A stretch of DNA of 64,000 nucleotides from an uncultured bacterium. Its GTDB lineage: Bacteria; Oederibacteriota; Oederibacteriia; Oederibacteriales; Oederibacteriaceae. The translations under genes and the position numbers were made by a program. The DNA is taken from NCBI GenBank assembly GCA_965112635.1, contig OZ218778.1, positions 1,845,807 to 1,909,806 of the forward strand, written 5' to 3'. A model generated the notes under the pieces. The model saw only the letters and a list, made by a program, of their open reading frames with translations. It was not told the origin of the DNA and ran no database searches. Below, piece by piece: positions 1-56,087 of the stretch. Position 1 is the stretch's first letter. Each line of letters opens with the position of its first letter.

Positions 1-3000
1 CAGACCTACACGTTGACTAATACAGCTACCGTTACATCCACGAATACGAACACCCAGACCGCTACCGCCACGGCCACACAGACCTATTCTTTGACCAACA
101 CAGCTACAGCTACGGCCACGAACACAAACACGCGGACAGCTACCAGCACGGCCACTTACACGCTAACCAGCACCGCTACCGCCACGGCCACGCAGACCTA
201 TACTTTAACTAACACCGCTACAGCTACGGTTACGAATACAAACACGCGGACGGCCACAAGCACGGCTACCTATACTTTGACCAGCACCGCTACAGCTACG
301 AATACGGCCACGAACACGGCTACCAATACGGCTACTAGCACAGCTACAAATACGGCCACCCAGACGGCGACCTCAACCGCTACCGCCACAGCTACATCTA
401 CGGTTACCGCCACCAATACGGCCACCAGCACTACTACCAGCACAGCAACTAATACGACTACCAACACAGCTACTAATACAGCCACCCAGACCGCTACCGC
501 CACGGCCACACGGACCTATTCTTTGACCAACACAGCTACGAACACAGCTACACCAACGCTGACCTCAACTACTACCGCAACAGCTACATCTACGGTTACA
601 GCGACCAATACGACAACGAATACTGCAACAAATACGGCTACGAACACAACTACTCAGACAGCGACCTCAACTACTACTGCCACAGCTACATCCACGATTA
701 CAGCGACCAGCACGGCTACTAATACGGCCACTAACACAGCAACCAATACTGGGACAAATACTGCCACGAATACTGTTACCCAGACGATGACCGCAACTAT
801 TACTGTCACAGCTACATCTACAGCTTCAGCCACCAATTCGGCTACGAACACAGCTACTAACACGGCGACTAATACGGCCACGAACACGGCTACAAATACT
901 GCCACGAATACAGCCACCCAGACGGCGACCTCAACTGCTACCGCCACAGCTACATCTACGGTTACCGCCACCAATACGGCCACCAGCACTACTACCAGCA
1001 CAGCAACTAATACGACTACCAACACAGCTACTAATACAGCCACCCAGACCGCTACCGCCACGGCCACACAGACCTATTCTTTGACTAACACAGCTACCGC
1101 TACATCCACGAACACAAACACGCAGACGGCCACAAGCACGGCCACTTACACGCTAACCAGCACAGCTACGGCCACCGCTACGCAGACCTATACTTTGACC
1201 AGCACCGCTACAGCTACGGTTACGAATACAAACACGCGGACGGCCACAAGCACGGCTACCAATACGGCTACTAGCACAGCTACAAATACGGCCACCAACA
1301 CAGCTACGAACACAGCTACACCAACGCTGACCTCAACTACTACCGCAACAGCTACATCTACGGTTACAGCGACCAATACGACAACGAATACTGCAACAAA
1401 TACGGCTACGAACACAACTACTCAGACAGCGACCTCAACTACTACTGCCACAGCTACATCCACGATTACAGCGACCAGCACGGCTACTAATACGGCCACT
1501 AACACAGCAACCAATACTGGGACAAATACTGCCACGAATACTGTTACCCAGACGATGACCGCAACTATTACTGTCACAGCTACATCTACAGCTTCAGCCA
1601 CCAATTCGGCTACGAACACAGCTACTAACACGGCGACTAATACGGCCACGAACACGGCTACAAATACTGCCACGAATACAGCCACCCAGACGGCGACCTC
1701 AACTGCTACCGCCACAGCTACATCTACGGTTACCGCCACCAATACGGCCACCAGCACTACTACCAGCACAGCAACTAATACGACTACCAACACAGCTACT
1801 AATACAGCCACCCAGACCGCTACCGCCACGGCCACACAGACCTATTCTTTGACCAACACAGCTACAGCTACGGTTACGAATACAAACACGCGGACGGCCA
1901 CAAGCACGGCTACCAATACGGCTACTAGCACAGCTACAAATACGGCCACCAACACAGCTACGAACACAGCTACACCAACGCTGACCTCAACTACTACCGC
2001 CACAGCTACATCTACGGTTACAGCGACCAATACTTCTACGAATACAGCTACTAATACGCCCACCAATACAGCTACTTGGACTGCGACCCCAACCGCCACT
2101 GCCACATCAACATCTACAGTTACAGACACCAGTACAGCTACTTATACTGGGACAAATACGGCTACGAACACCACTACCAATACGGCCACTAACACGGCAA
2201 CCAACACAGCGACGAATACAGCTACAAGTACGGCAACCAGCACGAGTACCACGACAAATACGGTAACGAATACAGTTACTAACACAGCCACAAATACGGT
2301 TACTTGGACAATGACTAATACGGCTACCAACACAGCTACAAATACAGCCACCCAGACGGCGACCTCAACTGCTACCGCCACAGCTACATCTACGGTTACA
2401 GCGACCAATACGACAACGAATACTGCAACAAATACCGCAACGAACACAACTACTCAGACAGCGACCTCAACTACTACTGCCACAGCTACATCCACGATTA
2501 CAGCGACCAGCACGGCTACTAATACGGCCACTAAAACAGCAACCAATACTGGGACAAATACTGCCACGAATACTGTTACCCAGACGATGACCGCAACTAT
2601 TACTGTCACAGCTACATCTACGGTTACCGCAACCAATACGGCCACAAACACAGCTACGAATACGGCTTCTCAGACAACAACAGCAACAACTACTACTACA
2701 GCTACCAATACAGCTACTAATACGTCCACCAATACTGCTACTTGGACTGCGACCCTAACTGCCACTGCCACGTTAACATCTACAGTTACGGCCACCAGTA
2801 CAGCTACTTATACTGGGACAAATACGGCTACGAACACCGCTACCAATACAGCTACTTGGACAGCAACTAATACGGCCACCAACACAGCTACGAACACAAA
2901 TACTCAGACAGCGACCTCAACTGCTACTGCCACGGCTACGTCTACTAATACAGTAACCAATACGACAACCAATACGGCCACAAATACTGCAACAAATACA

Positions 3001-6000
3001 TCCACGATTACAGCTACCCAGACGGCAACAACAACTGCTACTGCCACTGCTACATCTACGGTTACAGCTACCAATACAGCTACTGATACGACAACGAATA
3101 CGGCCACAAATACGACTACGAACACCACTACCAATACGGTTACTAACACGGCAACAAATACAGCGACGAATACGGCTACCAGTACGGCAACCAGTACGAG
3201 TACCACTACGAACACAGCCACGAACACAGCCACTAATACTGCGACAAATACAGGCACAAATACTGCTACCCAGACGATGACATCAACTGTTACTGCCACA
3301 GCTACATCTACTGCTACAACTACCAATACGGCGACCAGCACGGCAACTAATACAGCTACGAATACAGCTTCTCAGACAGCAACCGCAACCCCTACCGCCA
3401 CAGCTACGGCTTCTAATACAACAACCAATACTGCAACAAATACTGTCACTACCACGACTACCAACACGGCCACTACTACAGTTACCAATACGGCTACAAA
3501 TACCACTACAGATACGGCAACTAATACGACTACCAGCACAGCTACAAACACAGCAACTCAGACTTCTACGAACACCACTACCAGCACAGCTACAAATACG
3601 GTTACAAATACGGCTACTTCTACAATAACCAACACAGCTTCGAGTACCGCTACAAACACAACAACTAATACGATTACCAATACTGCTACAAACACAGCGA
3701 CTCAGACTGTGACGAACACGGCTACCATTACAGCTACAAGCACGACTACAAACACAGCTACGAACACGGCAACTAGCACTGCGACAAATACAGCGACGAA
3801 TACAGCTACAAGTACTGCAACAAGTACGAGTTCCGCTACCAATACAGCTACCAACACTGCTACAAATACCGTCACTAATACTGCTACGAACACGGCAACC
3901 AATACTGCGACAAATACAACGACGATTACAGCTACCCAGACGGCGACCTTAACTACTACTACCACAGCTACATCTACGGTTACGGCAACCAACACGGCTT
4001 CTAATACAACAACAAATACTGCTACCAGCACGGCCACTAATACGGCAACAAATACTGCTACAAATACTGCCACGAATACTGCTACACAGACGGCGAGCTC
4101 AACTGTTACTGCCACAGCGACAGCTACATTGACAGCGACCAACACAACCACAAACACGACTTCCAATACAACTACGAACTCAGACACTCCAACAGCTACG
4201 AACACCGCTACCATTACAGTTACCAGTACGGCCACTAATACTATGACTAATACATCAACTAGTACTGGCACGAATACCAATACAACAACCCAAACAACCA
4301 CGAACACAACAACAAATACGGCTACTTGGACGGCGACTATTACTCCTACTAATACCACCACGAACACAGCTACAAACACGACTACAAACACAACCACGAA
4401 CACAGCAACTAACACTGCGACAATTACTTCAACTACTACCACTACCAATACTGCCACCAATACGGTTACTAACACTGCAAGCAATACTGCTACAAATACA
4501 GCGACGATTACTGCTACCCAGACGGCGACCTCAACTGCTACCGCCACAGCTACATCTACGGTTACAGCGACCATCACAACTACTAACACGACTACGAATA
4601 CCGCTACGAACACGACCACTAATACAGCTACCAATACAGCGACCAATACGGCTACGAATACCGCCACGAATACAACAACTAATACGACTACCAATACAGC
4701 TTCAAACACGGCAACCCAGACGGCTACGAACACCGCTACTATTACCTCTACAAACACGACTACAAACACAGCCACCAACACGGAAACTAACACTGTGACT
4801 ATTACTTCAACTACTACCGCTACCAATACTGCCACCAACACCGCGACGAGTACTGCAACTAATACAGCTACAAACACGACCACGGGAACCGTAACAAATA
4901 CTGCAACCAACACAGCGACTCAGACGGCTACGAGCACCACTACAAATACAGCTACCAATACGGCCACCAATACTGTGACCAATACATCAACTAGTACAGG
5001 TACGAATACCGATACGGCAACCCAAACAACTACGAATACAACAACAAATACGGCGACTTGGACGGCGACTAATACTCCTACTAATACCATCACGAACACT
5101 TCCACTAACACGACTACAAATACCACAACAAATACTGCAACTAATACGGTAACGAACACAAATACGATCACGAATACAGCGACCCAGACGATTACCAATA
5201 CTGTGACCAGTACAACAACAAGCACCACGACTTATACAACAACGAACACGAGCACCAGCACTAACACGGCGACTCAAACCGCAACGAATACAACTACAAG
5301 CACTGTTACAAATACAAGCACCCAAACAGCGACAAATACGACTACTCAGACCGCCACTCAAACAGCAACTCAGACAGAGACAGTTACTGCAACCGACACG
5401 GCAACTCAAACTGCCACCCAGACAATCACTCAGACAGCGTCAAGTACGGAGACCGTCACGAATACCACCACAGCAACCAGCACGACTACGACAACCAATA
5501 CAACTACTGCAACTTGTTCGTCTACCTTGACCGCAACTCCTACAGTGACCAGCACGTTGACAACGACCTTTACGGGGACAAGTTCAGCAACTCAAACGGC
5601 GACTGCAACTAGTACAAATACGAATACGAATACTGCAACAGGCACTACGACCAATACGGAAACTAATACAGCTACTCAGACTGCTTCGAGTACCGTGACA
5701 ACAACTGGCACGCCGACGAATACGGTTACCTCGACAGCCACTATTTCCCTTACATTCACAAATACAGTGACTCAAACCACAACAGCTACGGCTACTTTGA
5801 CGGTTACGACTACTACTACAAGTACAATTACAAATACTGCCACCACCACCAATACGGAGACATCGACATCTACCAGCACGACCACTGGTTCGGAGACTGC
5901 TACAAGTTCCGCGACAACGACGCCCACTAATACTGGTACCTCAACCACTACCGCAACGGAAACGATTACCGCTACTATAACTTGTACATTTACCGAAACT

Positions 6001-7974
6001 TACACGGAAACTAGCACATCAACTAATACAGCTACTCCTACAAATACCTGCACTGTAACTGTGACTACAACTTCAACTGAAACTATGACTTCCACCTGTT
6101 CTTACACTGCCACTTTGACAGATACAGTGACTTTAACTTGGACTGAAACAGCAACTTGTACTGAGACGGCAACCTGGACTGAAACAAGTTCACCAACAGC
6201 AACTGCCACGATCACGCTGACCCCAACCTCGACTCAGACAGGGACCCAAACGGCGACTCAGACTGATACGCAATCTGCAACCTCTACGGGCACCCCAACA
6301 AGCACTAACACAGTTTCGAATACAGTGACCCAGACAAGTACCAGCACTTTAACTTCAACGTTGTCATCTACCGGAACGACCACATCAACTGGGACAATAA
6401 CGAGCACGGGAACAATGACTATGACAGCGACTAATACAGGTACAGTGACGTTGAGTTCTACCTCAACCAATACCCCCACTCCAACTCCAACAAGTAGTGC
6501 CACCAATACGATTACGCTGACTTATACTCAAACTAAGACTGGCACCGTCACCACTACAGCAACACAAACAGCAACGGTGACCACGACAGGCACCATCACC
6601 CTTACCTTTACACAAACGGCTACATCTACGATGACCGCCACGACGACCATGACAGCAACGATCACCCTGACCAGTACTATTACTTTGACTTTTACGCAGA
6701 CGGCAACAGCTACTAACACGGCAACGATCACTCTGACTTTCACGAGCACCAATTCTGCTACAAACACTGATACAGCATCTAGGACGAGCACCGCCACCAT
6801 GACAGCGACTATTACTCTGACCCCAACTATCACCCAGACACCTACAACAACTACTACATATTCTTTGACCCTAACTCCGAGTTTAACCTTTACTTATTTG
6901 CCTTCTTCTACCCAAACCATGACAAGCACCATTAGCCCAACTTCATCCAAAACACCAACAATCACTTTGACATTTACCCAATCCTTAACAACGACTAATA
7001 CCGGTACCGTGACGGTTACCATGACCATCACTACTACCGGGACCATAACGGCTACCTCCACTTCAACACAAACTTATTCGAGGACGGCGACTATCACCCT
7101 CACTGCCACAATTTCCAATACGCCCTCTCAAACCCTAACGCTTACAATTACAACCACCTCGTCCCTCACGCCTACTTCGACTAACACCAGTACAGCAACA
7201 AGGACTGCGACAGTTACCGCGACGAGCATTGGAACCTCTACCCAAACATGGACCTTAACCACCACTCTGACCCTAACCTATACTCCCACTACCACTATGA
7301 CCATTACGCTCACCACGACCCCTACGACGACTCCAACGCCCTCACTTACCCTAACCAGCACCTATTCAGTCACGTCTTCCCAAACCTTCACTGCTAGCAC
7401 GACCTTCACGATCACTCCCACCCCTGGACCTTCTACTCTAACGGTCCAGGTTTTGGATGCGTTTGATGAACTGAGGTTGTCTGGGGCCACGGTTTCTATC
7501 ACAGGGCCTTCAGGAACGCTAACTGGCAGTACGGATGGACGGGGGAATGTTACCTTTAACGGACTAGTCTTTGGGTCATATACCGTAAGTGCTTCAATGA
7601 CCGGCTATAATGGATCTTCAGGGAATGCTGTGCTAGCTCAACTAAATAATAGTTTGTTGATACGGCTCTACACGCAGTACAAGTCCAGTGTCCCTTATCT
7701 GACCAAGAACATAATCAACCCACTGAAAAATGAGAGCCTTGAGATCGGATGTCTGCTTACTCAGAAAGAGCACGTTTTGATCAAGATATTTACCCTTTCT
7801 GGCGGGGCAGAGATCATCACTCTTGTTGATCAGGACATTAGTCAGGGTCGCTATGCTGTAGAATGGTTCGGCAAAACCATTAATGGTGACACTGTGGGCA
7901 ATGGGATTTATATAGTCTTTATTCAACTCGGGACTGACAGGTTCATCAAGAAAGTCGCTGTAGTTAAGCAATAA
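1..7974 (+). CDS. Giant surface/secreted protein, 5'-partial (>2,650 aa). About 2,400 residues of alternating Thr-X (TNTATNTAT...), then a CarboxypepD_reg-like beta-sandwich (~7441-7680) and a C-terminal FlgD-Ig/T9SS-CTD-like domain (~7690-7974)
   Basis: Frame 1 is open from nt 1 (QTYTLTNTAT...), so the N-terminus lies outside the window. Thr sits at every second position from residue 1 to about 2450. The C-terminus reads GATVSITGPSG..DGRGNVTFNGLVFGSYTVSASMTGY (CarboxypepD_reg pattern), then NPLKNESLEIG..VLIKIFTLSGGAEIITLVD..VEWFGKT.NGDTVGNGIYIVFIQL..KKVAVVKQ. The same C-terminal domain family is shared by all cargo proteins in this window. Confidence 0.8.
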   Translation, partial: QTYTLTNTATVTSTNTNTQTATATATQTYSLTNTATATATNTNTRTATSTATYTLTSTATATATQTYTLTNTATATVTNTNTRTATSTATYTLTSTATATNTATNTATNTATSTATNTATQTATSTATATATSTVTATNTATSTTTSTATNTTTNTATNTATQTATATATRTYSLTNTATNTATPTLTSTTTATATSTVTATNTTTNTATNTATNTTTQTATSTTTATATSTITATSTATNTATNTATNTGTNTATNTVTQTMTATITVTATSTASATNSATNTATNTATNTATNTATNTATNTATQTATSTATATATSTVTATNTATSTTTSTATNTTTNTATNTATQTATATATQTYSLTNTATATSTNTNTQTATSTATYTLTSTATATATQTYTLTSTATATVTNTNTRTATSTATNTATSTATNTATNTATNTATPTLTSTTTATATSTVTATNTTTNTATNTATNTTTQTATSTTTATATSTITATSTATNTATNTATNTGTNTATNTVTQTMTATITVTATSTASATNSATNTATNTATNTATNTATNTATNTATQTATSTATATATSTVTATNTATSTTTSTATNTTTNTATNTATQTATATATQTYSLTNTATATVTNTNTRTATSTATNTATSTATNTATNTATNTATPTLTSTTTATATSTVTATNTSTNTATNTPTNTATWTATPTATATSTSTVTDTSTATYTGTNTATNTTTNTATNTATNTATNTATSTATSTSTTTNTVTNTVTNTATNTVTWTMTNTATNTATNTATQTATSTATATATSTVTATNTTTNTATNTATNTTTQTATSTTTATATSTITATSTATNTATKTATNTGTNTATNTVTQTMTATITVTATSTVTATNTATNTATNTASQTTTATTTTTATNTATNTSTNTATWTATLTATATLTSTVTATSTATYTGTNTATNTATNTATWTATNTATNTATNTNTQTATSTATATATSTNTVTNTTTNTATNTATNTSTITATQTATTTATATATSTVTATNTATDTTTNTATNTTTNTTTNTVTNTATNTATNTATSTATSTSTTTNTATNTATNTATNTGTNTATQTMTSTVTATATSTATTTNTATSTATNTATNTASQTATATPTATATASNTTTNTATNTVTTTTTNTATTTVTNTATNTTTDTATNTTTSTATNTATQTSTNTTTSTATNTVTNTATSTITNTASSTATNTTTNTITNTATNTATQTVTNTATITATSTTTNTATNTATSTATNTATNTATSTATSTSSATNTATNTATNTVTNTATNTATNTATNTTTITATQTATLTTTTTATSTVTATNTASNTTTNTATSTATNTATNTATNTATNTATQTASSTVTATATATLTATNTTTNTTSNTTTNSDTPTATNTATITVTSTATNTMTNTSTSTGTNTNTTTQTTTNTTTNTATWTATITPTNTTTNTATNTTTNTTTNTATNTATITSTTTTTNTATNTVTNTASNTATNTATITATQTATSTATATATSTVTATITTTNTTTNTATNTTTNTATNTATNTATNTATNTTTNTTTNTASNTATQTATNTATITSTNTTTNTATNTETNTVTITSTTTATNTATNTATSTATNTATNTTTGTVTNTATNTATQTATSTTTNTATNTATNTVTNTSTSTGTNTDTATQTTTNTTTNTATWTATNTPTNTITNTSTNTTTNTTTNTATNTVTNTNTITNTATQTITNTVTSTTTSTTTYTTTNTSTSTNTATQTATNTTTSTVTNTSTQTATNTTTQTATQTATQTETVTATDTATQTATQTITQTASSTETVTNTTTATSTTTTTNTTTATCSSTLTATPTVTSTLTTTFTGTSSATQTATATSTNTNTNTATGTTTNTETNTATQTASSTVTTTGTPTNTVTSTATISLTFTNTVTQTTTATATLTVTTTTTSTITNTATTTNTETSTSTSTTTGSETATSSATTTPTNTGTSTTTATETITATITCTFTETYTETSTSTNTATPTNTCTVTVTTTSTETMTSTCSYTATLTDTVTLTWTETATCTETATWTETSSPTATATITLTPTSTQTGTQTATQTDTQSATSTGTPTSTNTVSNTVTQTSTSTLTSTLSSTGTTTSTGTITSTGTMTMTATNTGTVTLSSTSTNTPTPTPTSSATNTITLTYTQTKTGTVTTTATQTATVTTTGTITLTFTQTATSTMTATTTMTATITLTSTITLTFTQTATATNTATITLTFTSTNSATNTDTASRTSTATMTATITLTPTITQTPTTTTTYSLTLTPSLTFTYLPSSTQTMTSTISPTSSKTPTITLTFTQSLTTTNTGTVTVTMTITTTGTITATSTSTQTYSRTATITLTATISNTPSQTLTLTITTTSSLTPTSTNTSTATRTATVTATSIGTSTQTWTLTTTLTLTYTPTTTMTITLTTTPTTTPTPSLTLTSTYSVTSSQTFTASTTFTITPTPGPSTLTVQVLDAFDELRLSGATVSITGPSGTLTGSTDGRGNVTFNGLVFGSYTVSASMTGYNGSSGNAVLAQLNNSLLIRLYTQYKSSVPYLTKNIINPLKNESLEIGCLLTQKEHVLIKIFTLSGGAEIITLVDQDISQGRYAVEWFGKTINGDTVGNGIYIVFIQLGTDRFIKKVAVVKQ
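290..2650 (+). repeat. Near-perfect long tandem DNA repeats inside the giant ORF (units of about 560-780 bp; e.g. 537-1304 vs 1305-2072, 343-520 vs 903-1080 vs 1683-1860)
   Basis: Minus-strand antisense ORFs 654..1067 and 1422..1835 give identical 137-aa translations. Visible nucleotide identity over hundreds of bp (e.g. gccacccagacggcgacctcaactgctaccgccacagctacatctacggttaccgccaccaatacggccaccagcactactaccagc recurs three times). Confidence 0.85.
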
Positions 7975-8030: not shown

Positions 8031-8426
8031 ATGAACTGGAAAAAGGTTGTTCTTTGTATTTTTATTACCCTTTTCTCCTTATGGGGCAATCTTGCATTCA
8101 GCCAAGGCATTCCATGGCTGGACCAAGATGGGTTGTTTCTGGGCCATAACAAGATCAATCCGCTGAATCATGAGTCTGTATCTGTTGTCTATCATTTGGC
8201 GCAGGACACCCATGTGGTCATAAAAATTTATGATCTTTCCGGCCAGAAACTTATCAGGACATTAGTGGACGGGAATTTTGGAGGGAGTTGGTCATACCAA
8301 GTTTTTTGGGATGGCACCAGTAGAAGTGGAGATGTTGTTGGAAATGGTATTTACGTCATTCAGTTAGTAACCAAAAGTGTAAATATACTCAAATTCATTG
8401 CCGTGGTTAAAACCACAGGCAGTTAA
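8031..8426 (+). CDS. Small secreted protein made only of a signal peptide plus one FlgD-Ig/CTD-like domain (CTD-only minigene; paralog of the giant ORF C-terminus)
   Basis: MNWKKVVLCIFITLFSLWGNLAFSQG signal peptide. NPLNHESVSV..VVIKIYDLSGQKLIRTLVD..VFWDGTSRSGDVVGNGIYVIQL..KFIAVVK closely parallels the last 90 aa of 1..7974. GGGAGG RBS at ~8001. Confidence 0.7.
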   Translation: MNWKKVVLCIFITLFSLWGNLAFSQGIPWLDQDGLFLGHNKINPLNHESVSVVYHLAQDTHVVIKIYDLSGQKLIRTLVDGNFGGSWSYQVFWDGTSRSGDVVGNGIYVIQLVTKSVNILKFIAVVKTTGS

Positions 8427-8432: not shown

Positions 8433-10085
8433 GTGGGTAGGGTGCAAATCTTTATGGTTGGTTTGGTCATTCTGTTGATGTGGGCGCCCAATGTTTTTGG
8501 CACGGCTTTTGGAACCACGGGCCAAAATTTTCTAACCATTGGCGTTGGTGCAAGGCCGACGGCGATGGGAGGGGCTTTCGTCGGTCTAGCTGACGACCCT
8601 GATGCGATCCACTGGAACCCAGCTGGTTTGATTAATCTTGAAGACTATGAAATTTCCCTGATGCATAGCGCTCTCATCGGAGACGTCAGCTATGATACCG
8701 TTTCCTACGCCCAGCCCATAGCTGTTGATTATGGTTATATTGGAGCCGGCATTGCCTATTTAGGTGTCCCCCCGTTTGATAATACCGTTGGTCGCGAAAA
8801 CTCGATCTCTGCCCATAATTTCCTGTTAGACATTGCCTATGCGAATCGATTGAGCGATATGTTTGATATAGGCAATCCAATCGGCCGGCGTTTAAGTTTG
8901 GGACTAGGTATAAAATGGATCAATTTTTCGATCGATAACTTGGTGAGTTATAATGACGTGGCCTTCGATGTTGGCACCTATTTCATCACTCCCTGGGAAC
9001 CGTTAACTCTGGGCGCGAGTTTGCAAAATTTAGGTATTTCTCTGGACCCTGCCGCTGTTTCAGACCCACTGCCTTTGACCTTTAGATGCGGAGCGTGTGT
9101 CCACATTGCAGACCTATCTATGCAGCTTGACCTGATCCAGCAAGTGGATAATGACGCCGTGATAGGATGGGGAACAGAATATAATTTCCAGGATTTATTG
9201 TTCCTAAGGGGTGGTTATGCGATTGGCGGGCCTTCTCTAAACGGGTTGTCCGGGATAACATGCGGTGCCGGATGGAGGATGAGGTCCTTTGAGTTTGATT
9301 ATACCTTTGTACCTATGGGGGAGTTGGGCGCCACCCACCGTTTTTCTCTTAACGTTTCCTTTGAACAGGAGCTCAAAGAATTACGTAAGAATCTGGCCGT
9401 GGAATCCAAAGACAAGGTCCAAAAAGATGAAATCATTGCTTTATATAAGAAGGGCAATGAATTCTATTATCAGGGGAACTACACTCAAGCTTTGGATGCC
9501 TGGCAGCAGATCCTGATCGTGGACCCGAAAAATCAAAAAGCGCAGGAAAGAATCACTTTTACCACGAACCTTTTGAACAAGAAGTTCACGGAAAACGAAG
9601 CAACGCAGTATTATGAACAGGGAATGAGTGATTATTCGGCTGGTGACTACGAAAAGGCTTTGGAACAATGGGCTAGTGTCCAAAAGATAGTTCCCGATTA
9701 CTTGAATATAAAGGAGATGATAAGTAAGGCAGAGGCGAAGTTGGCTGAAAAGAGAGTCGACAGGGCTGGAGTGGGTCCTTTGCTTGAAGCTGCTCGTACT
9801 TCCTATAAACAAGGGCAACTGCTGGATGCCGTCAAAGATTGGAGAAAAGTTTTAGAAGCAAATCCTCAAAATCAGGAAGCCCTGAAGTCGTTAAAGGATG
9901 CTAATGCGGAGATTTTAAACTTGGCAAAGAAAACCTATGATAAGGGGTTAGAATTTTACACCAATGGGGATTACGATAATGCCATTGCCACCTGGAAAAA
10001 TGTGGTAATACTTCAGCCTGATCACCCAACCGTATTGGGTGATATTGAGAGAGCCCAGAAAGAGGTAAATTCGTTGAAAAAATAA
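8433..10085 (+). CDS. FadL/TodX/PorV-family outer-membrane beta-barrel fused to a C-terminal ~240-aa TPR-like extension
   Basis: N-terminal signal peptide. FadL-family N-motif GARPTAMGGAFVGLADDPDAIHWNPAGL. Barrel ends with a beta-signal-like FSLNVSF, followed by four or more TPR-like repeats (YYQGNYTQALDAWQQILIVDPKN..., YEKALEQW..., WRKVLEANPQN..., YDNAIATWKNVVILQPDH). The start may be GTG 8433/8442 or ATG 8454. Confidence 0.65.
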   Translation: MGRVQIFMVGLVILLMWAPNVFGTAFGTTGQNFLTIGVGARPTAMGGAFVGLADDPDAIHWNPAGLINLEDYEISLMHSALIGDVSYDTVSYAQPIAVDYGYIGAGIAYLGVPPFDNTVGRENSISAHNFLLDIAYANRLSDMFDIGNPIGRRLSLGLGIKWINFSIDNLVSYNDVAFDVGTYFITPWEPLTLGASLQNLGISLDPAAVSDPLPLTFRCGACVHIADLSMQLDLIQQVDNDAVIGWGTEYNFQDLLFLRGGYAIGGPSLNGLSGITCGAGWRMRSFEFDYTFVPMGELGATHRFSLNVSFEQELKELRKNLAVESKDKVQKDEIIALYKKGNEFYYQGNYTQALDAWQQILIVDPKNQKAQERITFTTNLLNKKFTENEATQYYEQGMSDYSAGDYEKALEQWASVQKIVPDYLNIKEMISKAEAKLAEKRVDRAGVGPLLEAARTSYKQGQLLDAVKDWRKVLEANPQNQEALKSLKDANAEILNLAKKTYDKGLEFYTNGDYDNAIATWKNVVILQPDHPTVLGDIERAQKEVNSLKK

Positions 10086-10191: not shown

Positions 10192-12192
10192 ATGAAAAGT
10201 AATTCCAATAAGAGAAGCTATTTTCCTTTTTATTGTTTTTGGATAGTTGTAAGTTTATTTCTCCTCCTTTCTGTTTCCATGCTCCTTCAAATTGCGCTTG
10301 CCCAAGACAATGCTTCTCATGTTGCCTCTATATCTGTTGATGAGGGTGTTAAGGCTTATTTAGGGGGGGATTTAGATAAGGCTATTTTATCCTTTGAAGA
10401 TGCGTTAAATTCCGGTCAGGACGCCGAAAAAATAAAGGCTCTTTTAGTAAAAGCCCTGGTGGAGCGGAGCAACCAGTTGTTCGTGCAGGGAGATTTTACC
10501 AAAGCTTTTACTTACTCCAGCCGCGCCAAAGAGTTAGCTCCCAATAACCAGGAAGTGGCCTTAATTAATAGCCTTATCCTGCAAGCTAAAAGAGCCGTTG
10601 ATGTGCGGCCTATCAGAAAAACAGAAACGGTTTTGATCAGGGAGACCAGCACTGCTAACCGCCAGATGCAGAAGCAAATAGGGCAATTACTAGAGGCTTT
10701 CAAGCAGACCCAGCAGAAAATCTCCTTGTTGAATGTTTCACCCACAGCCGTATCAAAGTCGGTCGGCGCAGATATTATCTTTTATGTTTTATTGATTGGG
10801 GTGTTATTGGCCGGTGCGATTATCGTGTTTATTAGAGTGTGGTTTAGGTCCCACGAATCAATATTTACCCAGCAGCAAAATAAATTATTAGGTGTCATCT
10901 ATAACCAACAGCAAGTCCTGCTCAAAGATAACCAGAGGCTTGTTCCTGAGTCTACTCCAACCAACAAGGAAAGCATTAGCACGAGGGAAATGCTCAGCGA
11001 TCTCAATCCGCATGTCCGGGCCAGAGGCTTGGAGGTCTTGGCTGAGGAGCTCGAGCGCGAAAAGACTCCGAGCATTGTGGCCAAAAAGATCATTACCCCG
11101 TTTTTAAGCGAAAAAGACAATCGAGTCAGGGGCAATGCCGTTAAGGTTCTTTATAAATACGACGTTGAACAGGCGCGCGAGATCTTGAGGGAGATGTTTT
11201 GGAGTGGCAATGAATGGATGAGGCTTTCGGCAGCTTGGGTAATCGGGGAAGTAGCGGATCACGAGGGTGCGAGATGGATATTGCAGGCTATGGATGAGGC
11301 TCTGCCTCACCTGAAGCGGCGTTGCATCAAAACGATCCAGATATTTTTGAAGAATAGGAATCCACAATTACCCCTAGATCTTCATGACCAGATGAAGGAA
11401 ACGCTGGAAAAATTTAGGGATTATGTAGAAGAGGAAAACTCCCGACCTAATAGCCAGTCAGGAGTTTTGGGCACTACTACGGACAGTAAGGGGGGGGCTA
11501 CCGATGACAGTTCAAGCAGAAACATTTCGCCGAGGTGGAGGTACGTTTTAAAGAATTTATTTAGGAAACAGTGGCAAGCTCTAGAACGAGAGGTTCGGGA
11601 GCGCGAGCGGATAGCGTTCAAGTCCAGGGAAGACGTTGAATCTTTAGCTTTAGCAGAAAAGCAGAGGAATATTAGGCTTAGTACTGATATGGAAAAGTTG
11701 GAAAGGCAATATTTTGCCGTAAAAAAGAAGCTGGAAGAAGCAGAGAGCCAGTTTGCAGAATATAAAGCAGAGAATGACAGGGTGAGCAATCTGTTAAGTC
11801 AAAATTTGGCGGAGATCAATGAGCTCAAAAAGATCAAAGAAGATTTCAAAAAGGTCGTTGAAGAGAACAAAAACCTCCAGAATATGCTCATGGATAAAAG
11901 TAGTTCTTGGGCCACGGTTGTTCCAGGCGGGAGCCCTATTCTCGATGAAAGCAAAAGCAAAGCGGATGATGTACAGAATCTGGTCAATTCATACACGGAA
12001 TTGGAAAAACAGTGGCAAGCCATTTTGGCGGAGAAAGAAAGCCGTGTGGGTTCCCTTAAACAAAAAATGACGGAAACGGACGAGAAAGTCAAAAAAAAGG
12101 GGGAAGTTCGTAAGAAAGTAAGCAAAGAAAAAAGCAGCAGTATCGGAAGGTTGTATTATTTTGTGAACAAGAAATTGGGCGGTCTGCAGTAA
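10192..12192 (+). CDS. Membrane protein: N-terminal TM, periplasmic TPR-like region, second TM, cytoplasmic HEAT/PBS-lyase-like repeats and a long Lys/Glu-rich coiled coil
   Basis: Hydrophobic segments FPFYCFWIVVSLFLLLSVSMLLQIALA and IIFYVLLIGVLLAGAIIVFIRVWF. HEAT-like NPHVRARGLEVLAEEL..DNRVRGNAVKVLYKY..WMRLSAAWVIGEVAD. Coiled-coil C-terminus. sigma70-like promoter candidates in the AT-rich spacer 10086-10191. Confidence 0.5.
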   Translation: MKSNSNKRSYFPFYCFWIVVSLFLLLSVSMLLQIALAQDNASHVASISVDEGVKAYLGGDLDKAILSFEDALNSGQDAEKIKALLVKALVERSNQLFVQGDFTKAFTYSSRAKELAPNNQEVALINSLILQAKRAVDVRPIRKTETVLIRETSTANRQMQKQIGQLLEAFKQTQQKISLLNVSPTAVSKSVGADIIFYVLLIGVLLAGAIIVFIRVWFRSHESIFTQQQNKLLGVIYNQQQVLLKDNQRLVPESTPTNKESISTREMLSDLNPHVRARGLEVLAEELEREKTPSIVAKKIITPFLSEKDNRVRGNAVKVLYKYDVEQAREILREMFWSGNEWMRLSAAWVIGEVADHEGARWILQAMDEALPHLKRRCIKTIQIFLKNRNPQLPLDLHDQMKETLEKFRDYVEEENSRPNSQSGVLGTTTDSKGGATDDSSSRNISPRWRYVLKNLFRKQWQALEREVRERERIAFKSREDVESLALAEKQRNIRLSTDMEKLERQYFAVKKKLEEAESQFAEYKAENDRVSNLLSQNLAEINELKKIKEDFKKVVEENKNLQNMLMDKSSSWATVVPGGSPILDESKSKADDVQNLVNSYTELEKQWQAILAEKESRVGSLKQKMTETDEKVKKKGEVRKKVSKEKSSSIGRLYYFVNKKLGGLQ

Positions 12193-32508: not shown

Positions 32509-35175
32509 ATGGGCAGACGACTCGTTTTACTTATCATCCTATTTTGGTCTGTTTCGGCCTGGAAAGCTGAGGCGGCAGTGTACTGGTATATGGAGGCGCC
32601 CGGCTGGGTCGAACCCACCGGCAATCCCGATTGGACGAACCTGTCGTACTTTAATGTCTACAACGAGCTGACCACCACGGCCACAGGCCCAATCCTCGTG
32701 ACCTATACCCTGGCGAATGGTCTCACTTTTAAGCCCGTCTCTTTCGGATTACAGCCGTCCAGCGTCAACTATGACGCCGGCACCGGGGTGACCACCGTGA
32801 CCTATAATTTGGGCAGTATGGCCGGACAGACCAATAACTATGGTTATTGCGGCTTTGCTATCAATTACACCACGGTCAACCCCACGACCCTGATCCAGGA
32901 AAACCAGCAATTCACTGTGACAGCGACCCTGAGCGGGGCCAGCAGCGTCAGTGCCAACCCCCAGAGCTTCCAGGCGCCCGCTTTATTCGAGACCGTCGGC
33001 AAGAACATTGATCCCGACCCGATCGAGGCGGTGCCGAGCACGGCCACGGCCAACCTCTATTTGGAAACTTCGCAATATTATAACTGCTCCAACCTCGTGG
33101 TCTGGGATACGCTTCCCAACGGCACCTCCTACATCCCCGGCACCAGTTATCTGGATAACGAGACCAGCGATGAACCCGGGTCCGGGACCCAGCTCTGCCG
33201 TCCTGACGGGACTTCGCTGCTGGTGTGGTCTGTTCCAGCTGACCCTTGGACCCTGGCCGGGTCAGACCCCGTCCTGAGCTACGGGTTCACCATCAACTCG
33301 AATTACAGCGTTACGGGCTGCGACAGCGCCGGAGCGCCGGTCTATTGCACCGACATGCTGCCCAATCTCGTGGGTGACAGCTTTAATTACGCCAGCATCA
33401 GCGGCCAGTCCCCGGCCAACGCGGGATCCGCCCTGCAAACCGGTGTGTTTGCGGACATCGATATCGACGACCCCTCCATCACCAAGACCATCGGGAGCAT
33501 TACCGACAGCCAGGGTAACCCTGTTTCGGGTAGTTATGTCACGCCCGGCGATATCGTGACCTACAGCATCACGGTAGTTTCTCCGACGGCACCTACCCAT
33601 GACCTCAAGGTCAGGGATTTCCTGCCATCATCCATGGCTTTTTTGGGTTCCCTTACCAATTACACCACGACCGGAGGCGTGCCCGCGCCGACCCAGAGTT
33701 TTGTCAATTCCAATTTGTGCTACTGGACCTGGTCCGCGGATTTTCCCAAGGGCGGGTCCTGGAACGTCACCTTCCAGACCCAAGTGCTGGATAATACCTA
33801 TTTGCCCGACCCCGGGGCCTCGACCCTGACCAACATGGGCGATTTTTGGGACACTAATACCTCGGGGACCACCTCGGGGTTGGGACAGTACGATGCCCCG
33901 GATTTGACCTACCAGAACAATGTGGTTACGACCAAGAGCGCCAGCAAAAGCACGGGTACTGGCGGCGATATCATTAACTATACGATCGCGGTCACCAATA
34001 ACGGCGGCAGGGCCATTAACAATGTTGAGGTCTTTGACACCATCCCGGCCGGCATGACCTATGTCAGCAGCACGCCCACGGCCAGTTCCGAGGCCGTCAA
34101 CGGGGACTCCAGCACCACGGTCAAATGGAACAACCTGGGGATTCTGAACCCCGGCAGTTTCCTGACCCTCTATGTGTCCGCCTCGGTCAATCCGGGCGAC
34201 CCGGGAGGGGAGACACTGACCAATTTTGTCGCCCCTGTTTTTTACTCCTCCCAGCTGACCCCTGGAGCGCCCGGGAGGAACTATTACAACGGCGTTACGG
34301 CTTTGGCCAGCGTGCAGGTGGCCACCTGGACCATGACCCCGACCCAGACCAGGACAGCGACCGCCACCAGCACGCAGACCTATACCGCCAGCGCGACCGC
34401 CACCCCCACCAGCACCGCGACCCAGACCTCGACGGCGACGCAGACCCTGACCAGGACCTATTCGCTTACCGGGACGCAGACTTTCACTCTCACGCAGACC
34501 CTGACCCCGTCCCTGACGCTGACCAGCAGTTACACGGCCACCGCCACCAGCACGGCCACGCAGACATCCACTTCGACCTTGACGCTGACCCCATCCGAAA
34601 CTTTTACCCCCAGCGAGACGGCCACTTACAGCCAAACCTCCACGCAGTCCTATACGGTCACCCTGACCCTGACCCCTTCCAAGACTTTTACCCCCAGCGA
34701 GACGGCCACGATCACTTTGACCTGGACCATCACCTGCACTTCGACCAATTCCTATACCAGCACGCAAACCCTGACCCCTTGCCAGACCCTGACGCCATCC
34801 CAGACCCTGACGCCATCCCTGACCCAGACCCATACCCCAACCTTGACGCCGTCCCACACCGCGACAGCCACGCCTACCTTTATCACCACACCTCCCGCAG
34901 TCGGGACATCCTTTATTTATCCCTCACCGGCTACCGGGGACACGGCGGCCATTGCTTTTTTCATGTCCGTGCCAGGGAACTTCAAGATACGGGTGTATAA
35001 CGAGGCAGCCGAACTGGTGGAGACCGTAGAGGGGAATATGCAGGCAGGGCCGCAGTTGAGCATGATCCATACTAGGGACTATGTTTCAGGAGTTTACTTG
35101 TATATTATCAAGTTGGATTACGGGTCGCAGGGTTCCATCAAAATCGGTCCCAAGAAGTTCATTGTGTTGCATTAG
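32509..35175 (+). CDS. Secreted cargo protein: DUF11/CARDB-like repeat domains, TQT/TxT stalk, FlgD-Ig/CTD-like C-terminal domain
   Basis: Signal peptide. DUF11-type segments (VVWDTLPNGTSYIPGTSY; TIAVTNNGGRAINNVEVFDTIPAGMTYVSS). Stalk TQTRTATATSTQTYTASATATPTSTATQTSTATQTLT... (~34330-34900). C-terminus FIYPSPATGDTAAIAFF..FKIRVYNEAAELVETVEG......GVYLYIIKL. Confidence 0.7.
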   Translation: MGRRLVLLIILFWSVSAWKAEAAVYWYMEAPGWVEPTGNPDWTNLSYFNVYNELTTTATGPILVTYTLANGLTFKPVSFGLQPSSVNYDAGTGVTTVTYNLGSMAGQTNNYGYCGFAINYTTVNPTTLIQENQQFTVTATLSGASSVSANPQSFQAPALFETVGKNIDPDPIEAVPSTATANLYLETSQYYNCSNLVVWDTLPNGTSYIPGTSYLDNETSDEPGSGTQLCRPDGTSLLVWSVPADPWTLAGSDPVLSYGFTINSNYSVTGCDSAGAPVYCTDMLPNLVGDSFNYASISGQSPANAGSALQTGVFADIDIDDPSITKTIGSITDSQGNPVSGSYVTPGDIVTYSITVVSPTAPTHDLKVRDFLPSSMAFLGSLTNYTTTGGVPAPTQSFVNSNLCYWTWSADFPKGGSWNVTFQTQVLDNTYLPDPGASTLTNMGDFWDTNTSGTTSGLGQYDAPDLTYQNNVVTTKSASKSTGTGGDIINYTIAVTNNGGRAINNVEVFDTIPAGMTYVSSTPTASSEAVNGDSSTTVKWNNLGILNPGSFLTLYVSASVNPGDPGGETLTNFVAPVFYSSQLTPGAPGRNYYNGVTALASVQVATWTMTPTQTRTATATSTQTYTASATATPTSTATQTSTATQTLTRTYSLTGTQTFTLTQTLTPSLTLTSSYTATATSTATQTSTSTLTLTPSETFTPSETATYSQTSTQSYTVTLTLTPSKTFTPSETATITLTWTITCTSTNSYTSTQTLTPCQTLTPSQTLTPSLTQTHTPTLTPSHTATATPTFITTPPAVGTSFIYPSPATGDTAAIAFFMSVPGNFKIRVYNEAAELVETVEGNMQAGPQLSMIHTRDYVSGVYLYIIKLDYGSQGSIKIGPKKFIVLH

Positions 35176-37783: not shown

Positions 37784-37912
37784 GCTTTTTCCCTTTCCGT
37801 AACTTGATAATCGATCCCTAACTCTCTATACTTTAACAGAAAACTATTGTAATCTCATTTGCAGGCACGAACAATACCTGAAGAAAAACCATTGGTAAAA
37901 AAGAAGAAAACC

Positions 37913-53725: not shown

Positions 53726-53754
53726 ACACAGGGAACACAGGCAGATAAGAGTGA

Positions 53755-55992: not shown

Positions 55993-56087
55993 TCCTTTGG
56001 AATAGGGAAATTAGAAGATTATCTACGTGTTTCTTCAATTATATGGCAAAAAACGGTTGTATTGGTCTTTGCAAATCCTGGGTATTT

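What the first reader, a model, noticed from the sequence alone, without database searches (positions are those of the whole stretch)
1..7974. A >2,650-aa protein that is ~90% strict period-2 threonine (T-x-T-x...), maintained at the protein rather than DNA-slippage level
Thr occupies every second residue for about 2,400 residues. The intervening position varies (N, A, S, Q, V, I, P, Y, W, C...). The Thr codons are a mix of ACA/ACG/ACT/ACC, so this is not a simple microsatellite and the alternation is under amino-acid-level constraint. In an extended beta-strand a period-2 pattern puts all Thr on one face, giving a kilometre-scale Thr ladder. Two possibilities are compatible: a hyper-O-glycosylated mucin-like stalk or sheath, or a beta-solenoid/amyloid-like fibre with an ice-binding-like TxT face. 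The tract ends in a CarboxypepD_reg beta-sandwich and a sorting-type CTD, so it is exported to the cell surface. The N-terminus is outside the window, so the real protein is larger.
Basis: partly seen in the sequence, partly recalled or inferred. Interest (0 to 1): 0.8.

Follow-up and report, generated by a model that had tools for sequence, protein, structure and literature searches.

The report
Giant threonine-every-second-residue surface stalk protein
The window opens inside a real gene whose protein has threonine at every second residue for at least 2,474 residues and ends in a cell-surface sorting domain; it is most likely an extremely long stalk of a common but apparently undescribed kind, not an ice-binding fibre.

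Summary
Frame 1 of the + strand is open from base 1 to the stop at 7972-7974. Of the 1,238 alternate positions, 1,186 are Thr and 49 are Ser, with no phase slip over 2,474 residues. Thr codons are evenly mixed. Between internal repeat copies, Thr codons change almost only at the third base, so Thr is under purifying selection. Expansion by duplication is also visible.

The tract is not unique. Five other secreted proteins in the window carry shorter T-x tracts. An exhaustive search found 4,559 cluster representatives with them. The usual layout is folded head, T-x tract, then a small FlgD-Ig/T9SS-type C-terminal domain (CTD). The longest uninterrupted tract among the best 150 hits is 919 aa.

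The giant gene is followed by a CTD-only gene and a PorV/PorQ-family gene. Three more PorV-family genes sit beside other CTD cargo genes in the window.

The best reading is a C-terminally sorted surface protein with an uncharged, extended stalk of 0.6-0.9 µm, probably O-glycosylated. It would work like Gram-positive serine-rich-repeat stalks, Ser-Asp repeat stalks and Pro-Thr linkers. A beta-solenoid or ice-binding structure is not supported.

Two caveats apply. The N-terminus is missing, and only bases 4632-8484 have independent assembly support.

The parts
1..7422 (+). Period-2 Thr tract: residues 1-2474 of the visible protein, cut at the 5' end by the window edge. In residues 1-~1800 the intervening residue is 79-90% A/N/S/T/Q/G. 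In residues ~1800-2474 it becomes increasingly hydrophobic (up to 42%) and Pro-rich (up to 16%).
   Evidence: Translation and phase counts; composition of the intervening residue by region; repeat history; selection test.
7435..7632 (+). CarboxypepD_reg-like (prealbumin-fold) beta-sandwich domain between the tract and the CTD.
   Evidence: Pfam PF13620, 33.3 bits against a cut-off of 32.3. There are weaker hits to CarbopepD_reg_2, SpaA and SdrD_B, and to a domain of the Kustd1514 S-layer glycoprotein model.
7690..7971 (+). C-terminal sorting domain (FlgD-Ig-like / T9SS type-A-like CTD), ending ...KKVAVVKQ. The stop codon is at 7972-7974.
   Evidence: Its own HMM scores are below cut-off. It is 43% identical to the CTD of ORF 8031-8426 and 35% identical to that of ORF 37859-39079. 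The family profile hits FlgD (7eh9, E 6e-7) and PorU residues 1083-1154 (6za2, E 1.3e-5).
8031..8426 (+). 131-aa protein made only of a signal peptide and a CTD paralogous to the giant's CTD. It starts 56 nt after the giant gene's stop codon.
   Evidence: Translation; TIGR04183 at 25.7 bits against a cut-off of 23; alignment A1; no terminator-like site between the genes.
8433..10085 (+). PorV/PorQ-family outer-membrane beta-barrel fused to C-terminal TPR repeats. It starts 6 nt after the preceding gene and is the candidate cognate shuttle or anchor for the CTD.
   Evidence: NF033709 PorV_fam at 161.5 bits against a cut-off of 90, plus TPR families. The same fusion follows a FlgD_ig cargo gene in locus L084 (22% identity over the full length, E 3e-23).
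10192..12192 (+). HEAT/TPR-repeat protein, same strand, possibly in the same transcription unit. Role unknown.
   Evidence: Pfam HEAT_2 at 35.5 bits. A promoter-like site lies at 10135-10163, but such sites are no more frequent here than in shuffled sequence.
32509..35175 (+). Another protein with the same idiom: DUF11 domain plus a ~185-aa T/S-x tract (34324-34881) near the C-terminus.
37859..40059 (+). Second cargo/PorV pair. A 406-aa protein (DUF11, short T-x tract, FlgD_ig CTD; 37859-39079) is followed by a PorV/PorQ-family gene (ORF listed as 38968-40059; the PorV match starts at residue 81).
51663..63373 (-). Third cluster. Three cargo genes are followed by two PorV/PorQ-family genes (52781-53725 and 51663-52583). 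The cargo genes are 59810-63373 (DUF11, ~370-aa T-x tract, CTD), 56088-59744 (FG-GAP, T-x tract, FlgD_ig CTD) and 53755-55992 (subtilase S8, DUF11, short T-x tract).

Best explanation
The ORF is the C-terminal 2,657 residues of a giant secreted cell-surface protein built as head, stalk and anchor. The head is missing because it lies upstream of the window.

Proposed mechanism, step by step:
1. Sec export to the periplasm. This is inferred; the signal peptide is not visible.
2. The C-terminal FlgD-Ig/T9SS-type beta-sandwich CTD directs the protein across or onto the outer membrane. It is then handled by a PorV/PorQ-family barrel, most plausibly the PorV-TPR protein encoded two genes downstream. 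The domain homology and the gene linkage are shown; the interaction is inferred.
3. The (Thr-x) tract of at least 2,474 residues acts as an extended stalk or tether. It is almost uncharged and rich in beta-branched residues. Its contour length is 0.6-0.9 µm, so it would hold the N-terminal functional part far from the cell. It is probably kept soluble and stiff by dense O-glycosylation of the Thr hydroxyls. Glycosylation is inferred by analogy only.

Selection keeps Thr, or occasionally Ser, at every second residue and lets the other residue vary. Length has grown by in-register duplications in multiples of 6 nt.
For: Shown:
- An intact frame and a perfect register over 2,474 residues.
- Purifying selection on Thr: third-base changes 43, against 6 first-base and 0 second-base changes in Thr codons.
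- Duplication history that is always in multiples of 6 nt.
- Only 33 charged residues in 2,476.
- A CTD homologous to in-window CTDs and to the FlgD and PorU C-terminal domains.
- Four PorV/PorQ-family genes in the window, each directly downstream of CTD cargo genes. No terminator-like site separates the giant gene from the next two genes.

Same idiom elsewhere:
- Five other cargo genes in the window carry T-x tracts.
- The tract finds 2,963 hits among 8,000 scored candidates and 4,559 cluster representatives at E <= 1e-3.
- In 244 retrieved proteins a median of 567 non-tract residues precede the first tract, and the last tract ends a median of 134 aa before the C-terminus. Here the figure is 183 aa.
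- The heads include GH5, GH8, GH9, GH16 and GH30 enzymes, S53 and S8 peptidases, DUF11 and Kelch.
- A distant organism with a 919-aa tract also has a FlgD_ig cargo gene followed by a PorV-TPR gene.

Precedent from the literature:
- Low-complexity stalks next to the anchor project adhesive domains away from the cell; Ser-Asp dipeptide repeats run from 56 to 558 residues (PMC10367597).
- The SRR2 region of serine-rich repeat proteins forms an extended stalk whose length is thought to match the capsule thickness (PMC7661464).
- Ser-Asp repeats are glycosylated by SdgA and SdgB (PMC3794999).
- A Pro-Thr box links the domains of Cellulomonas fimi CenA, which is secreted glycosylated (PMC8209791).
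Against: - No glycosyltransferase is adjacent. The only lead is a Wzy_C+TPR protein about 35 kb away (43176-45146). Wzy_C is also the domain of O-antigen ligases, and its NCBIfam hits are uninformative.
- The Bacteroidota O-glycosylation motif is almost absent (6 sites).
- The N-terminal head and signal peptide are not visible.
- T9SS core genes (SprA, PorK/L/M/N, PorU) are not in the window, so the translocation route is unproven.
- The last ~600 residues of the tract alternate Thr with hydrophobic residues, which is a classic amphipathic beta-strand pattern.
- The AlphaFold2 runs were single-sequence and failed even on the CarboxypepD_reg domain. 'No structure predicted' is therefore weak evidence.
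- The order and copy number of repeats in bases 1-4573 lack independent support.
Confidence: 0.6

Rival explanations
1. The tract folds into an ordered Thr-faced beta structure. This could be a flat, silk-like beta-solenoid or sandwich as in Rhagium antifreeze protein, or a cross-beta fibre. The resulting long rigid fibre would have a Thr ladder that binds ice, mineral or polysaccharide.
For: - Period-2 Thr places all hydroxyls on one face of a strand.
- The intervening residues are small (A, S, N), as in the tightly packed interior of the Rhagium antifreeze protein (own knowledge).
- The only PDB sequence hits with any resemblance include two insect antifreeze proteins (4dt5, E 0.044; 6xnr, E 0.16).
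- TxTxTxT arrays are the ice-binding faces of several antifreeze proteins (PMC13080227).
- The last ~600 residues alternate Thr with hydrophobic residues. AlphaFold2 drew beta-strand meanders there, though at pLDDT about 45.
Against: - The intervening residues show no constant coil period. Autocorrelation gives only lags of 2, 4 and 6 dipeptides, plus variable lags of 17-23 in the recently duplicated 5' third.
- Turn-formers are rare: G 25 and P 33 of 1,238 intervening residues.
- Antifreeze arrays have at most about 4-6 Thr per strand, separated by turns (PMC13080227). Here the register is unbroken for 1,237 dipeptides.
- AlphaFold2 gives pLDDT 31 and no secondary structure for the core slice.
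- The PDB hits are not significant.
- In relatives the intervening residue is Pro 21% of the time, which is incompatible with regular sheets.
- The same idiom links ordinary enzymes to their CTDs.
Confidence: 0.12
2. The protein is not a tether for a head domain. It is itself a bulk surface or matrix material, such as a hydrated brush, sheath or biofilm-matrix polymer. It would be released or loosely held after CTD processing, and the T-x tract would be the functional part.
For: - The tract is at least 93% of the visible protein.
- No head is visible.
- A weak hit to the anammox Kustd1514 S-layer glycoprotein model covers the end of the tract and the CarboxypepD_reg region.
- T9SS-type cargo can be released as well as anchored (general knowledge; shuttle proteins determine the destination, PMC12618676 abstract).
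Against: - In 244 relatives a median of 567 folded residues precede the tract, and the heads are recognisable enzymes or adhesin-like domains.
- The Kustd1514 hit scores 23 bits against a cut-off of 1,400.
- Nothing in the window tests release versus anchoring.
Confidence: 0.15
3. The extreme length is an assembly artefact, or the gene is decaying and unexpressed. Repeats would have been mis-joined or over-expanded, so the real gene would be a shorter, ordinary T-x-linker protein.
For: - Two other assemblies break inside the gene. ENA contig_40024 ends at window position 7670, and a Logan contig starts at 4632.
- Exact repeats of at least 31 nt occur throughout 1-4573.
- An NCBI record calls only a 114-aa product at the 3' end, and the giant protein is absent from the 5.8-billion-sequence collection.
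- Codon usage of the tract differs from the rest of the window.
Against: - The frame is open for all 7,971 nt while the other frames hold 53-456 stops.
- The dipeptide register never slips. A chimeric join would preserve it only when in register.
- The independently confirmed part, 4632-7422, is already a 930-aa in-phase tract. That is as long as the longest found elsewhere.
- Third-base divergence between repeat copies, without loss of Thr, indicates a translated and selected sequence.
Confidence: 0.08

Closest known systems
Serine-rich repeat glycoproteins of Gram-positive cocci (Fap1, GspB, PsrP, Srr1/2, SraP)
   Same: Both are very long surface proteins in which a hydroxy amino acid recurs at alternate positions for hundreds to thousands of residues. 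In both, the tract sits between a functional region and the C-terminal anchor and acts as an extended stalk (PMC7661464). The dipeptide character of the SRR is from my own knowledge.
   Different: The recurring residue is Thr here, not Ser. The organism is a diderm with a beta-sandwich CTD and PorV-family partner, not an LPXTG/sortase system. No accessory Sec or GtfA/B locus is in the window, and the only SecA present has the housekeeping layout with a SEC-C motif. Glycosylation is unproven here.
Staphylococcal Ser-Asp (SD) dipeptide-repeat stalks (ClfA, SdrC-G)
   Same: Both are strict dipeptide repeats next to the anchor. The SD repeats are shown biophysically to be highly extended stalks, run from 56 to 558 residues, and are glycosylated on the hydroxy residue (PMC10367597, PMC3794999).
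   Different: SD repeats are strong polyanions held extended by charge repulsion. This tract is 98.7% uncharged and at least 4 times longer, so a different stiffening principle is needed, such as beta-branched Thr and/or glycans.
Pro-Thr (PT) box linkers of bacterial glycoside hydrolases, e.g. Cellulomonas fimi CenA
   Same: Both place Thr at period 2 in a linker between modules of secreted proteins, on a protein that is secreted glycosylated (PMC8209791). Relatives of this tract are Pro-rich at the intervening position (21%) and link GH5/8/9/16/30 domains to their C-termini.
   Different: The PT box is about 2.4 kDa, whereas this tract is about 100 times longer. Pro makes up only 2.7% of the intervening residues here. 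No Pfam family matches the tract at all.
T9SS cargo proteins with a C-terminal domain, and the PorV shuttle (Bacteroidota)
   Same: Both have a C-terminal beta-sandwich of about 90 aa related to type-A CTDs and FlgD-Ig, together with PorV/PorQ-family outer-membrane proteins. Specialised shuttle proteins that recognise CTDs and route cargo are described in Flavobacterium (PMC12618676).
   Different: The lineage is not demonstrably Bacteroidota and T9SS core genes are not seen. PorV-family genes are multiplied here and sit beside individual cargo genes, one of them fused to TPR repeats.
TxT-type ice-binding beta-solenoids (Tenebrio, spruce budworm and Rhagium antifreeze proteins)
   Same: Both have Thr at alternate positions on a strand. 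There is weak sequence resemblance to Rhagium antifreeze protein 4dt5.
   Different: Antifreeze arrays are short strands (TxT up to TxTxTxTxTxT) stacked by regular coils (PMC13080227). Here there is no coil period and no turns, and no structure is predicted.

Membership tests
T9SS-type CTD cargo (type-A CTD / FlgD-Ig-like sorting domain) | C-terminal beta-sandwich domain of about 70-100 aa matching TIGR04183, PF18962 or PF13860 | tested here: inconclusive
   Its own scores are below cut-off: FlgD_ig 19.9 vs 27 and Por_Secre_tail 15 vs 27. It is 43% and 35% identical to in-window CTDs that pass (TIGR04183 25.7 vs 23; FlgD_ig 34.3 vs 27). The joint profile hits FlgD and the PorU C-terminal domain in the PDB. 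Homology is likely; the function as a sorting signal is untested.
T9SS-type CTD cargo | N-terminal Sec signal peptide | not testable with these tools
   The N-terminus lies upstream of base 1. Upstream DNA could not be retrieved.
T9SS-type CTD cargo | T9SS machinery in the same genome (SprA/Sov, PorK/L/M/N, PorU, PorV) | tested here: inconclusive
   Four PorV/PorQ-family genes pass NF033709 (161.5, 104.8, 102 and 93.2 bits against a cut-off of 90). No other T9SS component was found among the ORFs of at least 150 aa that were scanned. The rest of the genome is not available.
Serine-rich repeat glycoproteins (SRRP) | Ser-rich dipeptide repeats, an LPXTG cell-wall anchor, and an accessory Sec (SecA2/SecY2/Asp) plus GtfA/B locus | tested here: not met
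   The recurring residue is Thr (1,186) rather than Ser (49). The C-terminus is a beta-sandwich ending KKVAVVKQ with no LPXTG. None of the ORFs scanned matched SecY2, Asp or Gtf families, and the one SecA has the housekeeping layout with a SEC-C motif. It is a functional analogue, not a member.
TxT ice-binding beta-solenoids / Rhagium-type antifreeze proteins | Regular coils of fixed length that stack short TxT(xT) strands into a flat array, with turns between them | tested here: not met
   No fixed super-period. G and P are rare. AlphaFold2 gives pLDDT 31 and no secondary structure for the core slice. The PDB hit to 4dt5 has E = 0.044 and 16 bits. Ice-binding activity itself is not testable here.
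Pro-Thr box / PT-repeat linkers | (Pro-Thr)n or XPTX repeats forming a short inter-domain linker | tested here: not met
   Pro makes up 33 of 1,238 intervening residues. No Pfam family matches the tract, even at E <= 10. Relatives are closer to this type, with Pro at 21%.
Bacteroidota general O-glycosylation substrates | D-(S/T)-(A/I/L/V/M/T) sequons | tested here: not met
   Only 6 such motifs occur in 2,476 residues. Dense glycosylation, if it occurs, would need a different enzyme specificity.
Metagenomic 'T-x tract + CTD' surface proteins (unnamed class defined here) | In-phase T/S-x tract of at least 40 aa, followed within about 100-300 aa by the C-terminus, usually with a FlgD_ig or Por_Secre_tail domain | tested here: met
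   The tract ends 183 aa before the C-terminus. In 244 relatives the median distance is 134 aa (IQR 95-310) and the median tract length is 301 aa. The best relative, P0006, scores 261 bits with 58% identity over matched stretches.

The most novel reading that the evidence does not exclude
The A/N-rich, Pro-poor T-x tract is not a glycosylated random stalk. It self-organises into a defined Thr-ladder beta structure, either silk-like or a flattened solenoid, and forms a sub-micrometre rigid proteinaceous fibre on the surface of an uncultivated diderm. It would bind ice, mineral or polysaccharide. That would be a new class of bacterial surface filament built from a dipeptide code.
Probability: 0.1. 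Interest if true: 0.85.

Novelty: new variant of a known kind. Interest (0 to 1): 0.45.

Why it matters
If the reading is right, uncultivated diderm bacteria use a simple (Thr-x)n code as a general spacer between the working domain and a CTD/PorV-type surface anchor. This would parallel the Ser-x and Ser-Asp stalks of Gram-positive bacteria, which arose independently.

I found no Pfam family for this idiom and no paper describing it. It nevertheless occurs in thousands of protein clusters, so naming and modelling it would improve annotation of many 'hypothetical' metagenomic surface proteins.

The present gene is the extreme case. A stalk of 0.6-0.9 µm is of the order of a small bacterial cell's own dimensions. 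That raises concrete questions about how such a chain is exported, kept soluble and modified, and what it reaches for.

The repeated pairing of cargo genes with their own PorV-family gene also suggests per-cargo shuttles outside Bacteroidota.

The practical lesson for assembly is that such genes break short-read assemblies and go missing from protein catalogues.

Tried and rejected
- Upstream sequence. Exact look-up of the neighbouring 131-aa protein gave two contigs that both end inside the gene. P0003 could not be located. A 42-nt exact search of JGI metagenomes found nothing.
- Syntenic relatives through the PorV-TPR protein. Nothing was found in genome contigs or metagenome contigs.
- Taxonomy. 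PurA gives only 48-58% identity to many phyla, best to Candidatus Edwardsbacteria, so the lineage is unresolved.
- Homologues of the non-repetitive C-terminus. The only hit was the same gene's own fragment. A query including 143 aa of tract was swamped by T-rich words.
- Length filter in the word-indexed search. All hits were no longer than about 1.7 times the query (my inference). Tract-length comparisons therefore rest on the exhaustive search.
- Structure prediction. Both AlphaFold2 jobs were single-sequence, because align_proteins failed internally on tract slices. They gave pLDDT 40 and 31. That is too low to use in fold search, which I therefore did not run.
- Repeat avoidance as the cause of the flat Thr codon usage. 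Adjacent Thr codons are identical 22.8% of the time against 25.2% expected. The real tract also has fewer distinct 18-mers than codon-reshuffled versions. I rejected this explanation.
- Pfam on the tract: no family at E <= 10. Pfam on three giant relatives: none.
- Glycosylation genes. The ORFs scanned include no glycosyltransferase. One Wzy_C+TPR protein and one epimerase remain as weak leads.
- RNA and tRNA scans. Only one tRNA-Gly was found, which is irrelevant here.
- Literature. I found no paper on long T-x tracts. TxTxT terms retrieve only antifreeze papers. The sample accessions appear in no paper.
Full report
**1. What is in the sequence**

The + strand, frame 1, is open from base 1 to a stop at 7972-7974, which is 2,657 codons. 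The other five frames contain 53-456 stops over the same 8.1 kb. The window holds no N.

Thr sits at every even residue from 2 to 2474. In blocks of 100 residues the Thr phase holds 42-50 Thr up to residue 2400 and the other phase 0-8. The register never slips. Of 1,238 phase positions, 1,186 are Thr, 49 Ser, and one each Leu, Ile and Gly.

The intervening position is A 363, N 261, S 145, T 101, Q 63, V 62, L 48, I 44, P 33, G 25 and others. Thr codons at phase positions are evenly mixed: ACA 335, ACG 293, ACC 281, ACT 277.

The tract is 98.7% uncharged. It has two zones.
- Up to about residue 1800, the intervening residue is 79-90% small or polar.
- From about 1800 to 2474 it becomes up to 42% hydrophobic and up to 16% Pro, with five Cys between about 1850 and 2050.

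At 0.25-0.36 nm per residue the contour length is about 0.62-0.89 µm, not 'kilometre-scale'.

**2. Selection versus slippage**

Both processes are visible.

DNA-level expansion is clear.
- Every period reported by Tandem Repeats Finder is a multiple of 6 nt, from 12 to 144.
- One 640-nt segment recurs at 97% identity (507-1146 vs 1275-1914). Others of 230-320 nt recur at 91-94%.
- From about 2700 onward there are no long near-identical repeats.

Selection on Thr is equally clear. Between the paralogous copies, Thr-phase codons differ at the third base 43 times, at the first base 6 times and at the second base never. Only six of these codon differences are nonsynonymous. The intervening codons differ 13/18/33 times at the three positions. 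Thr is thus under purifying selection, while the other residue is much freer.

The exclusive multiples of 6 nt could reflect selection for the dipeptide register. They could also reflect in-register microhomology. I cannot separate the two.

**3. Is the assembly trustworthy?**

An ENA contig of 140.5 kb ends at window position 7670. A Logan short-read contig reproduces 4632-8484 at 100% identity. Exact repeats of at least 31 nt stop at about 4574, which explains where the Logan contig begins.

The last 930 residues of the tract are therefore independently confirmed. The order and copy number of units in 1-4573 are not.

The giant protein is absent from the 5.8-billion-sequence collection, because the tract query found no self hit. 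An NCBI record carries only a 114-aa call at the gene's 3' end. I could not obtain upstream DNA.

**4. The C-terminus and the neighbours**

After the tract comes a CarboxypepD_reg-like domain (33.3 bits against a cut-off of 32.3) and then a C-terminal domain of about 95 aa. On its own the latter is below the cut-offs for FlgD_ig and Por_Secre_tail.

That domain aligns at 43% identity with the CTD of the next gene (8031-8426). It aligns at 35% with the CTD of the 406-aa protein at 37859-39079. Both of those pass curated thresholds. The joint profile finds FlgD Ig-like domains (E 6e-7) and the C-terminal domain of PorU (E 1.3e-5) in the PDB.

The next gene encodes only a signal peptide and such a CTD. 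Six bases further starts a PorV/PorQ-family barrel fused to TPR repeats (161.5 bits against a cut-off of 90). No terminator-like site separates these three genes.

The window holds three more PorV/PorQ-family genes. Each lies directly downstream of CTD cargo genes.

**5. The tract is an idiom, not a singularity**

Five other ORFs in the window carry in-phase T/S-x tracts of 20-370 aa. Their other domains are DUF11, FG-GAP or subtilase, and several end in FlgD_ig or Por_Secre_tail CTDs.

A word-indexed search with residues 1001-2000 gave 2,963 hits among the 8,000 candidates scored. An exhaustive HMMER search of 1.84 billion cluster representatives gave 4,559 hits at E <= 1e-3 and 900 at E <= 1e-10.

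In the 244 retrieved proteins that have a tract:
- the median longest tract is 301 aa;
- the first tract is preceded by a median of 567 other residues;
- the last tract ends a median of 134 aa before the C-terminus;
- the phase position is about 90% Thr;
- the intervening residue is P 21%, A 16%, N 13%, S 9%.

The heads include GH5, GH8, GH9, GH16 and GH30 enzymes, pro-kumamolisin peptidases, DUF11 and Kelch.

The longest uninterrupted tract among the best 150 representatives is 919 aa (P0131, 2,623 aa). The largest total is 2,393 aa, spread over 11 tracts in a 7,506-aa protein. The present tract of at least 2,474 aa is thus about 2.7 times the longest single tract seen. The ranking was by score rather than by tract length, so this is not a proven record.

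P0131's contig also has a FlgD_ig cargo gene followed by a PorV-TPR homologue.

No Pfam family matches the tract. I found no paper describing it.

**6. Structure**

The intervening residues show no constant super-period. There are only lags of 2, 4 and 6 dipeptides from the A/N alternation, plus variable lags of 17-23 dipeptides in the recently duplicated 5' third. Turn-forming Gly and Pro are rare in the main zone.

AlphaFold2 in single-sequence mode gave pLDDT 31 and no secondary structure for residues 1001-1200. For residues 2141-2657 it gave pLDDT 40 with low-confidence strand meanders. It also failed on the CarboxypepD_reg domain, so these runs are weak evidence either way.

The only PDB sequence resemblances are insignificant hits, which include Rhagium antifreeze proteins (E 0.044 and 0.16). 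Antifreeze TxT arrays are short strands stacked by regular coils (PMC13080227). That is unlike an unbroken run of 1,237 dipeptides.

**7. Most likely mechanism**

Shown: an intact, selected ORF that ends in a CTD homologous to FlgD-Ig/T9SS-type sorting domains. It is linked to a PorV-family gene. It belongs to a large class with a head, tract, CTD layout.

Inferred:
- export through Sec;
- CTD-dependent passage to the outer surface, with hand-over to a PorV-family barrel;
- a tract that works as an extended stalk holding the missing head up to about 0.6-0.9 µm from the cell.

An uncharged chain that is 50% beta-branched Thr should prefer extended backbone conformations and would tend to aggregate if bare. 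I therefore think dense O-glycosylation is likely. This follows the pattern of serine-rich repeat stalks (PMC7661464), Ser-Asp repeats (PMC10367597, PMC3794999) and Pro-Thr linkers (PMC8209791). There is no direct evidence for it here, and the Bacteroidota sequon is nearly absent.

**8. Comparison with known families and novelty**

The protein works like an SRRP or SD-repeat stalk but fails their membership tests: Thr rather than Ser, no LPXTG, and no accessory Sec or Gtf genes. It is plausibly a T9SS-type CTD cargo, but the machinery beyond PorV-family genes is unseen and the lineage is unresolved (best PurA match 58%, Candidatus Edwardsbacteria). It fails the defining features of TxT antifreeze solenoids.

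I rate it a new variant of a known kind. It is a Thr-x dipeptide stalk coupled to CTD/PorV sorting in uncultivated diderms, here at an extreme length. Interest is moderate. The pattern is striking and apparently undescribed, but its likely role is ordinary and the class is common.

**9. Open points**

- Thr codon usage is flat in the giant tract, but ACC-biased (47-60%) in the rest of the window and in three of the four neighbouring T-x tracts examined; the fourth has only 18 Thr codons.
- The role of the CTD-only protein is unknown.
- The last ~600 residues alternate Thr with hydrophobic residues and may fold.
- The identity of the head is unknown.

Noticed in passing
window 8031-8426 (+): A 131-aa protein that is only a signal peptide plus a T9SS-type CTD, 43% identical to the giant protein's CTD. 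It has no passenger domain and sits between the giant gene and the PorV-TPR gene. It could be a decoy, adaptor or duplication remnant.
   Followed up: partly
window 8433-10085 (+), 38968-40059 (+), 52781-53725 (-), 51663-52583 (-): There are four PorV/PorQ-family outer-membrane genes in 64 kb, each immediately downstream of CTD cargo genes. One is fused to TPR repeats. The same cargo-then-PorV-TPR pairing is seen in the unrelated locus L084. This suggests per-cargo shuttles.
   Followed up: partly
window 1-7422 compared with the rest of the window: Codon usage of the giant tract is atypical. Thr codons are flat (about 25% each), Ala favours GCT (42%) and Asn favours AAT (66%). Other ORFs use ACC 54.5%, GCC 48% and AAT 49%. 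Three of the four shorter T-x tracts examined in neighbouring genes keep the genome-typical bias; the fourth has only 18 Thr codons. Repeat avoidance does not explain the difference.
   Followed up: partly
window 43176-45146 (+): A Wzy_C (O-antigen-ligase-like) membrane domain is fused to TPR repeats. Wzy_C is also the domain of PglL-type protein O-oligosaccharyltransferases (own knowledge). That makes it a candidate for glycosylating Thr/Ser-rich tracts, but NCBIfam hits are uninformative.
   Followed up: partly
window 32509-35175 (+), 37859-39079 (+), 53755-55992 (-), 56088-59744 (-), 59810-63373 (-): Five further secreted proteins carry DUF11, FG-GAP or subtilase S8 domains plus in-phase T/S-x tracts of 20-370 aa. 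Several also have FlgD_ig or Por_Secre_tail CTDs. This organism uses the T-x idiom routinely.
   Followed up: yes
L084 5367-5946 and 13912-14486: In the contig carrying the 2,623-aa relative P0131, a MerR-type HTH gene plus a ComFB-domain gene precede each of two large cargo genes. This repeated small regulator pair may control such genes. The window has a MerR-family gene at 14783-15718, but it is not adjacent to the giant gene.
   Followed up: no
window 12296-14278 (+) and L001 6626-6985: A HATPase_c_2 + HAMP + SpoIIE (PP2C) protein is followed by a STAS-domain protein. This is a partner-switching regulatory module just downstream of the giant-gene cluster.
   Followed up: no
window 5950-6160 (about residues 1985-2050): Five Cys residues occur at intervening positions (TCT or TCS) within about 200 residues of the otherwise Cys-free tract, together with a local excess of Glu and Trp (TETATWTET). 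They could be disulphide or metal sites, or a small folded insert.
   Followed up: no
window 23037-25046 (+), 29106-32327 (+): GH42-like and GH123-N-like proteins flank SecA. With the glycoside-hydrolase heads found on T-x relatives, this hints at a polysaccharide-degrading lifestyle.
   Followed up: no
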